In this document: positions 44,073 to 44,144 of the stretch, piece after piece | Layout: every line of letters starts with the position of its first letter | Position numbering within the stretch: the first letter of the stretch is position 1 | IMG/VR virus record: IMGVR_UViG_3300045988_076522 | DNA from: a virus | Length of the DNA stretch: 64,000 bases | Direction: 5' to 3' (one strand) | The notes under the pieces: model-generated | Databases searched by the model: none | Seen by the model: the letters and a program-made list of their open reading frames with translations, nothing else | Told to the model about the DNA's origin: nothing | Translations under genes and position numbers: made by a program

Positions 44073-44144
44073 TGCCCCATGTTGGACTCGAACCAACGCC
44101 ATACAAGTTTAGAATTTGCTCTTCTACCACTGAAGTAATGGGGC
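44073..44144 (-). tRNA. Amber suppressor tRNA-Sup (anticodon CTA, reads UAG)
   Basis: Canonical cloverleaf. Acceptor GCCCCAT/ATGGGGC. D-arm CTTC-AGTGGTA-GAAG. Anticodon stem GCAAA/CTTGT (one A-C at 31-39) with loop TTCTAAA, so U33 and A37 flank CUA. Variable arm ATGGC. T-arm GTTGGTTCGAGTCCAAC. Discriminator A. Confidence 0.55.

What the first reader, a model, noticed from the sequence alone, without database searches (positions are those of the whole stretch)
44073..44144. Canonical-looking amber suppressor tRNA (anticodon CUA) in the tRNA island
Hand folding gives a complete cloverleaf with U33-CUA-A37 in a 7-nt anticodon loop, a normal D-arm, T-arm and 7-bp acceptor stem. Such a tRNA would decode UAG. 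Established knowledge: stop-codon-recoded phages, including crAss-like and Lak-type phages, carry Sup-tRNAs and use TAG or TGA as sense codons in late genes. Nothing in this window is obviously recoded, and the ORFs here are contiguous under the standard code. Late genes elsewhere in the genome could be recoded. Alternatively the tRNA could manipulate host translation.
Basis: partly seen in the sequence, partly recalled or inferred. Interest (0 to 1): 0.8.

Follow-up and report, generated by a model that had tools for sequence, protein, structure and literature searches.

The report
Amber suppressor tRNA in standard-code crAss-like phage
The tRNA that reads the stop codon UAG is real and evolutionarily maintained, but this roughly 182-kb gut phage does not use UAG as a sense codon in its own genes, a puzzle already reported for this same phage clade in 2025.

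Summary
ARAGORN and Rfam (62.7 bits) call a tRNA with anticodon CUA at 44072-44144 on the minus strand, inside a 28-tRNA island.

The recoding interpretation fails for this genome. The window plus GenBank MT835470.1 reconstructs about 181 kb. Coding density of the non-window 117 kb is 0.98 under the standard code and does not rise if TAG is sense. TerL, portal and ORFs up to 2,967 aa are intact. TAG ends 21 of 210 ORFs.

The tRNA is nevertheless under selection. Its three variants in two diverged subclades keep CUAAAC. They show compensatory changes at 8 of 22 pairs, including the tertiary 19-56 pair. Position 31-39 is never paired.

TAG-recoded (TAG to Gln) relatives exist in the same family. 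They carry different, Gln-like suppressor tRNAs beside their late genes.

Genome size, GC (36.75%), tRNA count, PolA and a crAss-like TerL match "clade 8" of Zeta crAss-like Bacteroides phages (PMC12386605). That paper already states that all members carry tRNA-Sup-CTA without suppression.

The most likely role is low-level UAG read-through aimed at host translation. This is inferred, not shown. The finding is already known and of moderate interest.

The parts
44072..44144 (-). Amber suppressor tRNA gene, anticodon CUA ('type-1' body: GCCCCAU acceptor, A73, 5-nt variable loop, A31.C39 mismatch, no encoded CCA)
   Evidence: ARAGORN. Rfam tRNA 62.7 bits. The exact sequence occurs in 19 IMG/VR contigs. 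There are three variants across subclades, with 8 of 22 pairs changed on both sides.
43993..44069 (-). 77-nt tRNA-like gene with anticodon CAU, starting 3 nt downstream of the suppressor. It has a 3-bp D stem with an oversized D loop and a 6-bp anticodon stem. It is probably co-transcribed with the suppressor, but it is a neighbour and not part of the suppressor itself.
   Evidence: Rfam is sub-threshold at 20.8 bits and ARAGORN misses it. It is 100% identical in subclade-9 loci although the adjacent suppressor differs at 17 of 73 positions. One strain variant has a compensatory G6-C67 to A6-U67 change. Other strains carry replacement alleles in this slot. Coordinates were verified.
17991..51605 (-). 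tRNA island: 28 co-oriented tRNA genes interspersed with small ORFs, in which the suppressor sits between tRNA-Gly(UCC) and tRNA-Ile(GAU)
   Evidence: ARAGORN. The same Gly - Sup - Ile order is found in diverged relatives L167-L171 and L174.

Best explanation
Shown: this is a genuine, structurally constrained tRNA gene with anticodon CUA. It sits in the early/middle tRNA island of a roughly 182-kb Zeta crAss-like (clade 8) phage. That phage writes all of its own genes in the standard code.

Inferred:
- The tRNA is transcribed with the other 27 tRNAs and receives CCA after transcription, since none is encoded. A PolyA_pol-head (CCA-adding-type) enzyme is encoded in the genome.
- It is charged by a host synthetase. 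The CUA anticodon with U35 and A73 favours Lys or Gln, and the body is not Gln-like.
- It inserts an amino acid at UAG in competition with RF1. Efficiency is probably modest, because of the unpaired 31-39 position and the C32 C33 seen in one subclade.
- The phage needs no in-frame UAG decoding. The selective value is therefore most likely read-through of UAG-terminated host mRNAs, including defence genes, during infection.
- The phage tolerates this. Its 46 late genes end in TAA (41) or TGA (5). Twenty of its 21 TAG-terminated early/middle ORFs hit another in-frame stop within 1-27 codons.
For: The tRNA is real.

It is under purifying selection:
- The identical sequence is in 56 fetched loci from 19 or more IMG/VR contigs.
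- The three variants keep C34-U35-A36-A37-A38-C39 invariant.
- Eight of 22 pairs change on both sides, including the tertiary pair G19-C56 to A19-U56. 95.5% of cells are paired, against 24-49% when the partners are slid, and 0 of 500 shuffles reach the observed values.
- Synteny (Gly - Sup - Ile) holds across subclades whose neighbouring SPFH protein is only 69-75% identical.

The phage itself uses the standard code. No gene in suppressor-bearing loci has an in-frame TAG spanned by homologs, apart from one single-strain TCG-to-TAG polymorphism.

Stop-codon usage across 210 ORFs is 133 TAA, 56 TGA and 21 TAG. The late block has 0 TAG among 46 ORFs.

TAG-recoded relatives use different, Gln-like suppressor tRNAs at a different locus. 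The type-1 tRNA is therefore not simply the recoding tool of this family.

The literature describes the same situation for this clade. Yutin 2021 proposes host read-through as anti-defence. The 2025 Zeta paper proposes that suppressor tRNAs counteract defence systems by lowering host antiphage protein production, and that mass suppressor production weakens the host.
Against: There is no direct evidence of expression, charging or UAG decoding.

TAG is not avoided by suppressor-bearing phages:
- It ends 10% of ORFs here.
- In subclade 9 it ends TerL itself.
- The next in-frame stop after TAG is farther away (median 8 codons) than after TAA or TGA (median 4). There is thus no 'backup stop' signature of strong suppression.

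The absence of TAG stops in late genes is matched by a parallel TGA depletion. The TAG:TGA contrast between late and other genes gives p = 0.31, so a general TAA bias explains it.

The never-paired 31-39 position and C33 in subclade 9 depart from efficient suppressors.

Only three variants exist. Invariance of the 6-nt CUAAAC is therefore only suggestive: by my own estimate from the variability of the other unpaired positions, about 7% by chance.

Host identity (Bacteroides) comes from the paper's prediction and was not tested here.
Confidence: 0.45

Rival explanations
1. Incipient code change or mutational insurance. The suppressor has no dedicated function yet. It merely makes amber mutations survivable and is a first step toward TAG-to-amino-acid recoding of late genes (the Borges and Yutin model).
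For: Recoding to TAG = Gln has happened in the same family (L111, L044, L046, L047). Borges et al. report standard-code relatives that have acquired suppressor tRNAs. Yutin et al. suggest incipient change. One strain (L149) carries an in-frame TCG-to-TAG change in a 283-aa early gene.
Against: Two diverged subclades keep the tRNA through compensatory changes, yet accumulate no in-frame TAG. TAG is not depleted as a stop: 10% of ORFs, and it terminates TerL in subclade 9. The recoded relatives use unrelated, Gln-like suppressors placed beside their late genes. The 2025 paper makes the same argument against this model. In-frame TAA and TGA differences appeared at similar rates in a crude codon scan, which also produced false positives from gapped alignments.
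Confidence: 0.2
2. The RNA is kept for its tRNA shape and not for decoding. Examples would be a decoy or competitor for host anticodon nucleases or tRNA-modifying enzymes, a processing signal for the adjacent CAU tRNA, or a very poor decoder.
For: Position 31-39 is never paired, and subclade 9 has C32 C33 in place of the near-universal U33. The genome encodes PNKP-phosphatase, RNA-ligase and CCA-enzyme-type domains. These suggest a conflict over tRNA cleavage. The tRNA sits 3 nt from an ultra-conserved CAU tRNA-like gene. There is no backup-stop signature after TAG.
Against: The anticodon and its 3' neighbours (CUAAAC) are the only loop segment invariant in all variants, while positions 31-33 vary. 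G18, the 19-56 pair and the T loop are maintained as in translating tRNAs. No known nuclease targets a CUA anticodon (from my own knowledge).
Confidence: 0.15
3. Programmed read-through of particular phage genes. Suppression of a TAG stop makes a fixed fraction of a longer fusion protein, for example the 164-aa ORF that ends in TAG and is in frame with the next 180-aa ORF, four codons downstream.
For: In L030 (11721-12770), L053, L021, L039 and MT835470.1, the 164-aa ORF ends in TAG and read-through runs 184 codons to the stop of the 180-aa ORF.
Against: These two genes are found only in subclade 10. They are absent from the suppressor-bearing subclade-9 locus L042 and from the five more distant relatives tested (L043-L047). 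The same-frame arrangement has a 1-in-3 chance expectation and no evolutionary depth, since the copies are about 91-100% identical. All other TAG stops are followed by short extensions of 1-27 codons.
Confidence: 0.08
4. The tRNA serves other TAG-recoded genetic elements that share the cell. These could be co-infecting code-15 relatives or mobile endonuclease genes.
For: Recoded and standard-code members of the family occur in the same kind of sample. GIY-YIG-like ORFs with in-frame TAG occur in distant relatives L185 and L189.
Against: No ORF with an internal TAG and homolog support exists in this genome. Recoded relatives bring their own suppressors. No benefit to the carrier is apparent.
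Confidence: 0.04
5. One reading: late genes of this phage are written in code 15 and need this tRNA.
For: Only the presence of the tRNA and the existence of recoded relatives.
Against: All 46 late ORFs are intact under code 11. Coding density is 0.98 and does not rise with TAG as sense. TerL, the portal and ORFs of 1,143-2,967 aa are uninterrupted.
Confidence: 0.01

Closest known systems
tRNA-Sup-CTA of 'clade 8' Zeta crAss-like phages (proposed Echekviridae; PMC12386605, Table 1 rows 32-43)
   Same: Genome size is about 182 kb against 164-188 kb in the table. GC is 36.75% against 36.5-36.9%. There are 28 tRNAs against 27-29. PolA is present, the TerL is crAss-like, and a CTA suppressor is present with no suppression. 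The paper states that all clade 8 members carry the CTA suppressor (one probably incomplete MAG excepted) and that none shows suppression.
   Different: Nothing contradicts membership, but the listed genomes could not be compared directly. Added here: the tRNA body is not Gln-like; covariation includes the 19-56 pair; 31-39 is never paired; TAG stays in normal use as a stop, including on TerL in subclade 9; recoded relatives use a different suppressor lineage.
Gln-type amber suppressor tRNAs of code-15 phages (recoded crAss-like, Lak, phAss-1; Borges 2021/22, Yutin 2021, PMC10607447)
   Same: The anticodon is CUA with A37, the tRNA is phage-encoded, it lies in or near tRNA arrays, and no cognate aaRS was seen.
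   Different: In those phages TAG interrupts late genes and aligns with Gln. The same holds in relatives L111, L044, L046 and L047. Their tRNAs start with U1 and share the D arm UAUGGUGUAAUGG with tRNA-Gln. The window tRNA has G1-C72, a C/G10-G/C25 D stem and a different body. Its genome has no in-frame TAG.
Standard-code phages that have acquired a suppressor tRNA (Agate relatives in Borges et al.; alpha-group crAss OKSC01000115 in Yutin et al.)
   Same: A suppressor is present without reassignment.
   Different: Those cases are presented as recent events: a single point mutation of tRNA-Gln, or a single genome. Here the tRNA is fixed and maintained by compensatory evolution across two subclades.
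Classical bacterial amber suppressors (supE, supF, Su7 and similar)
   Same: A CUA anticodon followed by A37 A38, the 'extended anticodon' favourable for reading U-starting codons (from my own knowledge).
   Different: Those are single-mutation derivatives of sense tRNAs with intact anticodon stems. This tRNA has an unpaired 31-39 position and no identifiable parent. The nearest body is tRNA-Arg(UCU), at 45-46 of 56 positions outside the anticodon arm for two of the three variants.
tRNA-Pyl (ARAGORN's label)
   Same: Only the CUA anticodon.
   Different: tRNA-Pyl has a 6-bp anticodon stem, a 3-nt variable loop, a small D loop without G18 G19, and no T-psi-C consensus (from my own knowledge). 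This tRNA has canonical G18 G19, UUCGAGU and a 5-nt variable loop.

Membership tests
Amber suppressor tRNA (tRNA-Sup-CUA) | Sequence and structure match a tRNA covariance model and form a cloverleaf | tested here: met
   Rfam RF00005 at 62.7 bits against a gathering score of 29. ARAGORN also calls it. Across variants, 95.5% of cells are paired.
Amber suppressor tRNA (tRNA-Sup-CUA) | Anticodon CUA at positions 34-36 of a 7-nt loop, with U33 and a purine at 37 | tested here: met
   The loop is U32 U33 C34 U35 A36 A37 A38. The subclade-9 variant has C32 C33.
Amber suppressor tRNA (tRNA-Sup-CUA) | Maintained by selection (compensatory substitutions, conserved anticodon) | tested here: met
   Eight of 22 pairs change on both sides, and CUAAAC is invariant. 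Only three variants are available.
Amber suppressor tRNA (tRNA-Sup-CUA) | Is aminoacylated and decodes UAG in vivo | not testable with these tools
   This needs tRNA-seq, acid-urea gels, reporter assays or proteomics.
Code-15 (TAG to Gln) recoded phage | In-frame TAG in conserved late genes (TerL, portal, structural genes) | tested here: not met
   TerL (758 aa), the portal (733 aa) and all 46 late ORFs are uninterrupted. By contrast, L111 has 20 in-frame TAG in its portal.
Code-15 (TAG to Gln) recoded phage | Coding density much higher with TAG as sense than under code 11 | tested here: not met
   The figures are 0.98 against 0.968 for the 117 kb, and 0.84 against 0.895 for the tRNA-rich window with no homolog-supported gain. 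L111 goes from 0.49 to 0.91.
Code-15 (TAG to Gln) recoded phage | TAG rare or absent as a terminator | tested here: not met
   Twenty-one of 210 ORFs end in TAG.
[quoted passage not shown] | TerL related to crAss-like phages (Crassvirales) | tested here: met
   tblastn gives 28-31% identity over 75-81% of TerL to many Crassvirales TerL genes. PHROG terminase and portal families also match. No phylogeny was built.
[quoted passage not shown] | Genome 164-188 kb, GC 36.5-36.9%, 27-29 tRNAs, family A DNA polymerase | tested here: met
   Carrier contigs are 181.8-186 kb. GC is 36.75% over 181,447 bp. There are 28 tRNAs. DNA_pol_A matches at 1.5e-47, together with Thy1, dUTPase and NrdD. DnaB, a primase Toprim domain and a helicase are present.
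[quoted passage not shown] | CTA suppressor tRNA present, with no suppression in the genome | tested here: met
   against Table 1 and the text of the paper.
[quoted passage not shown] | Direct sequence similarity to the listed clade-8 genomes (for example 3190_52781, ct3H02) | not testable with these tools
   Those records are not in the collections available. No near match was found in INPHARED for the window. MT835470.1 (unannotated) is the same phage.
tRNA-Gln-derived suppressor | Gln-type body: U1-A72 first pair and a tRNA-Gln-like D arm | tested here: not met
   The window tRNA has G1-C72 and a CUUC/GAAG D stem. The phage's own tRNA-Gln and the suppressors of the recoded relatives share U1 and UAUGGUGUA. 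Overall-identity ranking is uninformative.
tRNA-Pyl | Six-bp anticodon stem, 3-nt variable loop, reduced D loop lacking G18 G19 | tested here: not met
   Read directly from the sequence and the Rfam alignment.

The most novel reading that the evidence does not exclude
The clade-8 suppressor is an independent, non-Gln lineage of amber suppressor. Its body resembles Arg(UCU), Lys and Thr-type tRNAs. One possible origin is a register shift of a UUCUAA anticodon loop, with the unpaired 31-39 position left as a scar. It would then be kept by selection as an offensive tool: it corrupts termination of host (Bacteroides) UAG-ending mRNAs, while the phage shields its late genes with TAA. That would make it a translation-level anti-host or anti-defence weapon and not a decoding adaptation.
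Probability: 0.3. Interest if true: 0.6.

Novelty: already known. Interest (0 to 1): 0.35.

Why it matters
Suppressor tRNAs are normally read as a flag for stop-codon recoding. This case shows that the flag can mislead. An abundant gut phage clade keeps an amber suppressor for a long time while using TAG as an ordinary stop, even on its terminase in one subclade.

If the tRNA is active, it gives a tractable system for two questions. One is whether phages use read-through to damage host or defence gene expression. The other is how a genome tolerates its own suppressor.

For annotation pipelines the practical message is that the genetic code should be called from in-frame stops and coding density. 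The presence of a Sup-tRNA is not enough.

The phenomenon itself was published for this clade in 2025, so the added value here is detail and not discovery.

Tried and rejected
- Megablast of 8 kb of the window against INPHARED found no match.
- A codon-level scan of blastn alignments for in-frame TAG, TAA and TGA differences gave 52, 30 and 16 sites. Inspection showed that gapped alignments create false positives; the exonuclease 'TAG' was not real. It was replaced by a protein-level test requiring homologs to span the TAG.
- Isotype assignment of the suppressor was tried several ways:
  - Whole-sequence nearest-neighbour ranking among 317 phage tRNAs does not discriminate; all score about 52-54 of 73.
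  - With the anticodon arm removed, tRNA-Arg(UCU) is nearest for two variants but not clearly for the window variant.
  - BLAST against phages gave only a weak hit to Streptomyces-phage tRNA-Lys, and nothing in E. coli.
  - The 5'-half pattern has no match in 185k bacterial genomes.
  - The 3'-half pattern hits Arg, Leu, Glu and Thr tRNAs, so the acceptor stem is not isotype-specific.
  - The 5'-half pattern with a non-A third anticodon base found only a tRNA-Lys(UUU) and a tRNA-Thr(UGU) in two small metagenome contigs.
- Attempts to reach the tRNA island of the suppressor-less sister clade and of recoded contig 083600 returned only clade 8 or much more distant phages. These used the 564-aa protein, the SPFH protein alone and as an alignment, a loose suppressor pattern, and a tRNA-Trp pattern.
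- PHROGs gave no family for the giant late ORFs. Pfam gave nothing for ten tRNA-island ORFs.
- The apparent gene splits between L020 and L021 were checked as possible TAG sites. They are poly-G frameshifts.
- The split of the 1,250-aa lysin homolog in L030 is a domain swap, not TAG read-through.

Full report

Yes. ARAGORN finds 29 tRNA calls in the window. One is a 73-nt tRNA with anticodon CTA at 44072-44144 on the minus strand. The name 'tRNA-Pyl' is only the program's label for CTA. Rfam's tRNA model matches 44073-44144 (-) end to end at 62.7 bits, against a gathering score of 29, with E 1.7e-12.

The sequence reads GCCCCAU-UA-CUUC-AGUGGUA-GAAG-A-GCAAA-UUCUAAA-CUUGU-AUGGC-GUUGG-UUCGAGU-CCAAC-AUGGGGC-A. 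The features are:
- a 7-bp acceptor stem;
- G18 G19 and a canonical T loop;
- U33, CUA, A37 and A38 in the anticodon loop;
- discriminator A73, with no encoded CCA.

The single-sequence MFE does not give the cloverleaf, and its z-score is only -2.1. The structural argument therefore rests on the covariance model and on covariation.

**2. What genome is this?**

All genes from 1 to about 57.7 kb are on the minus strand. They include the primase Toprim domain, DnaB, a helicase, an AAA ATPase, an adenylosuccinate-synthetase-like protein, an SPFH protein and 28 tRNAs. Small plus-strand genes follow from 58.4 kb.

An exact-protein look-up places the window on human-gut contigs of 181.8-186 kb. L021 is 99.8% identical to the window over 11.7 kb.

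Walking rightwards through IMG/VR contig 3300045988_034415 reaches three further blocks. That contig carries the identical tRNA and 100%-identical neighbouring proteins. The blocks are:
- a 10-kb minus-strand block with a 1,250-aa glucosaminidase protein;
- a plus-strand block with an exonuclease, TerL (758 aa, PHROG terminase, 8e-70) and the portal (733 aa, 4e-59);
- further large ORFs.

TerL is 99.9% identical to the unannotated GenBank record MT835470.1 (117,447 bp, human faeces). It is 28-31% identical to many Crassvirales TerL genes. MT835470.1 does not overlap the window, but it overlaps L020, L030 and L053. Window plus MT835470.1 makes 181,447 bp at 36.75% GC, which is essentially the whole genome.

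The early block of MT835470.1 encodes family-A DNA polymerase, Thy1, dUTPase, NrdD, DNA ligase and NAD-salvage enzymes. It also encodes a PNKP-type phosphatase, an RNA ligase, a PolyA_pol-head (CCA-enzyme-type) protein and a YqeY-like protein.

**3. Is TAG recoded?**

No.
- In the window, TAG ends 14 of 101 ORFs on the dominant strand, and no long ORF appears when TAG is read through.
- In the remaining 117 kb, coding density is 0.98 under code 11, 0.968 with TAG as sense and 0.976 with TGA as sense.
- The 46 late ORFs are all uninterrupted. They include ORFs of 2,967, 2,275, 1,590, 1,554, 1,525 and 1,143 aa.
- Genome-wide, 210 ORFs end in TAA (133), TGA (56) and TAG (21).

The late block uses TAA 41 times, TGA 5 times and TAG never. 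TAG depletion (Fisher p = 0.005) is paralleled by TGA depletion (p = 0.0075). The TAG:TGA contrast between late and other genes is not significant (p = 0.31). This is a general TAA preference, not a TAG-specific signal.

After a TAG stop, the next in-frame stop lies a median of 8 codons away, against 4 after TAA or TGA. There is no 'tandem stop' safeguard.

I also ran a protein-level test for in-frame TAGs spanned by homologs. In suppressor-bearing loci it found a single-strain TCG-to-TAG polymorphism in L149. It also found one ambiguous site in L042: a 745-aa segment in which a single homolog spans the TAG with Glu. I did not resolve it; it could be a true stop followed by an in-frame gene. 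The same test found 33-60 sites per locus in the recoded relatives.

**4. Recoding does occur in the family.**

The portal query brought in 80 loci from related phages of roughly 100-190 kb. One of them, L111, jumps from 0.49 to 0.91 coding density when TAG is sense. It comes from contig 083600 (174.5 kb), with portal 65% identical and GC 0.31. It has 20 in-frame TAGs in the portal and 6 in TerL, but none in the exonuclease. Its TAGs align with Gln in 149 of about 320 aligned cells.

L044, L046 and L047 behave the same way. Each carries one or two CUA tRNAs next to its late genes. These tRNAs begin with U1 and share the D arm UAUGGUGUAAUGG with the phage tRNA-Gln(UUG). The window's tRNA does not.

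The recoded relatives therefore use a different suppressor lineage at a different locus.

**5. Is the window's tRNA maintained?**

Yes. The exact sequence is in 19 IMG/VR contigs and in 56 of the fetched loci.

In a diverged subclade, a CUA tRNA sits at the same place between tRNA-Gly(UCC) and tRNA-Ile(GAU). That subclade has the portal 86% identical, the SPFH protein 69-75% identical and GC about 0.35.

There are three variants, which differ at up to 17 of 73 positions. The differences are concentrated in stems and are compensatory:
- C3-G70 to U3-A70;
- C10-G25 to G10-C25;
- two pairs in the anticodon stem;
- three pairs in the T stem;
- the tertiary pair G19-C56 to A19-U56.

Overall, 8 of 22 pairs change on both sides and 95.5% of cells are paired, against 24-49% in slid controls. 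No shuffle out of 500 reaches the observed values.

C34 to C39 (CUAAAC) is invariant, whereas positions 31-33 vary: A-U-U, A-C-C and C-U-U. Position 31-39 is unpaired in all three variants. With only three variants the anticodon invariance is suggestive and not conclusive. I estimate about a 7% chance expectation, from the fraction of other unpaired positions that vary.

**6. Which amino acid?**

Unresolved.
- Whole-sequence similarity is uninformative.
- Without the anticodon arm, two variants are closest to the phages' tRNA-Arg(UCU), at 45-46 of 56 positions. That is about 3 SD above the mean. The window variant is not clearly so.
- The same 5' half occurs in a tRNA-Lys(UUU) and a tRNA-Thr(UGU) of other tRNA arrays.
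- The acceptor stem occurs in bacterial Arg, Leu, Glu and Thr tRNAs.

From established E. coli work, which I cite from memory and have not checked here, CUA suppressors built on many bodies are charged by GlnRS or LysRS. Both enzymes read U35, and LysRS also uses A73. Lys or Gln is therefore the best guess.

No aaRS or release factor appeared among the families returned, but that list was truncated.

**7. Comparison with what is known.**

Yutin et al. 2021 defined the Zeta group of crAss-like phages. These have genomes of 145-192 kb with many tRNAs, and different branches use TAG, TGA or the standard code. The authors noted suppressor tRNAs without reassignment. They suggested incipient change, or anti-defence through host read-through. 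Borges et al. describe standard-code relatives that have acquired suppressors as possible precursors of recoding.

The 2025 paper on Zeta crAss-like phages lists 43 genomes. Its 'clade 8' has two subclades:
- subclade 9, with GC about 35.4%;
- subclade 10, with GC 36.5-36.9%, 27-29 tRNAs, 164-188 kb, PolA and predicted host Bacteroides.

All members carry tRNA-Sup-CTA, except one probably incomplete MAG. [quoted passage not shown] The authors argue against the incipient-change idea because diverged phages keep the same strategy. They propose that the suppressors help counteract bacterial defence by lowering host antiphage protein production, and that mass suppressor production may weaken the host.

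The window matches subclade 10 on every tabulated feature. My '86% portal' clade matches subclade 9. I could not compare sequences directly, because those records are not in the available collections.

**8. Mechanism.**

Shown: a selected tRNA with anticodon CUA sits in a standard-code genome.

Inferred: it is expressed with the tRNA island, charged by a host enzyme and competes with RF1 at UAG. Because the phage has nothing to decode with it, the benefit must come from elsewhere. I rank the candidates as follows:
- read-through on host messages, 0.45;
- incipient change or insurance against amber mutations, 0.2;
- a non-decoding or decoy role, 0.15;
- programmed read-through of specific phage genes, 0.08;
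- help for other recoded elements, 0.04;
- recoded late genes, 0.01.

Several observations argue against a strong suppressor. TAG remains in use as a stop, including on TerL in subclade 9. There are no backup stops after TAG. Position 31-39 is unpaired, and subclade 9 has C33.

**9. Verdict.**

The recoding interpretation is refuted for this genome but is true of relatives. The host-manipulation alternative is still open. The phenomenon is already published for this clade.

The new details are the non-Gln body, the covariation including the 19-56 pair, the persistent 31-39 mismatch, the normal use of TAG as a stop, and the distinct suppressor lineage in the recoded relatives. Interest is moderate, at 0.35.

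Noticed in passing
window 43993-44069 (-): A 77-nt tRNA-like gene with anticodon CAU starts 3 nt after the suppressor. It has an oversized D loop and a 6-bp anticodon stem. ARAGORN misses it and Rfam scores it 20.8 bits. It is 100% identical in subclade 9, although the adjacent suppressor differs at 17 positions. Near-identical strains carry replacement alleles in this slot: a compact 69-nt CAU tRNA with three G-C pairs at the base of the anticodon stem, a diverged copy with compensatory changes, and a deleted form.
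   Followed up: partly
L169 about 2181-3830 (also L181, L183): In these subclade-9 strains the CAU tRNA-like gene is interrupted right after CAU-A by unrelated sequence. The Sup-Ile spacing is about 1.65 kb instead of 0.22 kb. This looks like an intron or mobile-element insertion in the anticodon loop.
   Followed up: no
window 46225-46299 (-): ARAGORN calls this 'tRNA-Leu(CAA)', but it is only 75 nt and has no long variable arm. Its anticodon arm is ambiguous: Rfam aligns a 9-nt loop, while an alternative fold has a 6-bp stem with a 5-nt loop and U at position 37. It is an atypical tRNA of unclear identity.
   Followed up: no
window 36881-36957 (+): ARAGORN's only plus-strand call, 'tRNA-Arg(tcg)', lies antisense to tRNA-Ser(GCU) at 36896-36984. 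It is probably spurious.
   Followed up: no
window 17991-51605: The 28 tRNAs cover 19 amino acids. No tRNA-Val was called. There are five Arg isoacceptors and two, or with the tRNA-like gene three, CAU tRNAs.
   Followed up: no
window 34675-34758 (-): tRNA-Thr(UGU) is 84 nt with an extended variable region, which is unusual for Thr. Related strains carry 88-nt 'tRNA-Asn(GUU)' genes with long-arm bodies (for example L013, L191; seen).
   Followed up: no
L167, L169, L174 against the window (tRNA islands): The tRNA island is a mosaic. For the same anticodon, closely related phages carry quite different tRNA alleles (Tyr, Ile, Pro, Cys, Lys, Asn, His, Ala). Phe and Trp are conserved. This suggests cassette-like exchange of tRNA genes.
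   Followed up: no
L020 12053-13125 against L021 12053-13123; L030 11721-12770 and orthologs: Three small paralogous genes (356, 164 and 180 aa, sharing an NQLVKEEDI motif) each contain a GGGGG tract near the 5' end. Assemblies from different samples differ by frameshifts exactly there. This could be phase variation or a homopolymer assembly error.
   Followed up: partly
L030 11721-12770 (= L053 86-1135, MT835470.1): The 164-aa ORF ends in TAG and lies in frame with the next 180-aa ORF, four codons downstream. Suppression would give a fusion of about 349 aa. It is the only long TAG read-through frame in the genome. It is restricted to subclade 10.
   Followed up: partly
L111, L044, L046, L047 (IMG/VR contigs 083600, 108145, 058522, 075331): These are relatives of the same phage family, with GC about 0.30-0.31. 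They are strongly TAG-to-Gln recoded in late genes and carry Gln-like CUA tRNAs beside them; L044 has two in tandem. More distant phages sharing the SPFH protein carry CUA (L189, L198), UUA (L191) or UCA (L210) tRNAs.
   Followed up: partly
L212 (MT835470.1 1-32000): The early block encodes a PNKP-type phosphatase, an RNA ligase, a PolyA_pol-head (CCA-adding-type) enzyme and a free-standing YqeY-like protein. It also encodes NAPRTase and NAD synthase. This is a tRNA-repair and NAD-salvage tool-kit suggestive of counter-defence.
   Followed up: no
L185 about 14199-16800, L189 about 16027-16700: GIY-YIG-like endonuclease ORFs with in-frame TAG occur in distant SPFH-sharing phages. In these, the aligned residues at the TAG sites are mostly Lys and not Gln.
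   Followed up: no
L030 13012-16899 against L020 13191-16943: The 1,250-aa glucosaminidase protein of one strain is replaced beyond about residue 560 by different sequence in another strain. There it is split into three ORFs. This looks like domain swapping in a probable virion-associated lysin.
   Followed up: no
window 20855-22867 (-): This 670-aa protein has no Pfam family. It is nevertheless 47-50% identical to proteins of Bacillus phages (TsarBomba, BCP78), Ackermannviridae and many others. It is a widely conserved phage protein of unknown function.
   Followed up: no
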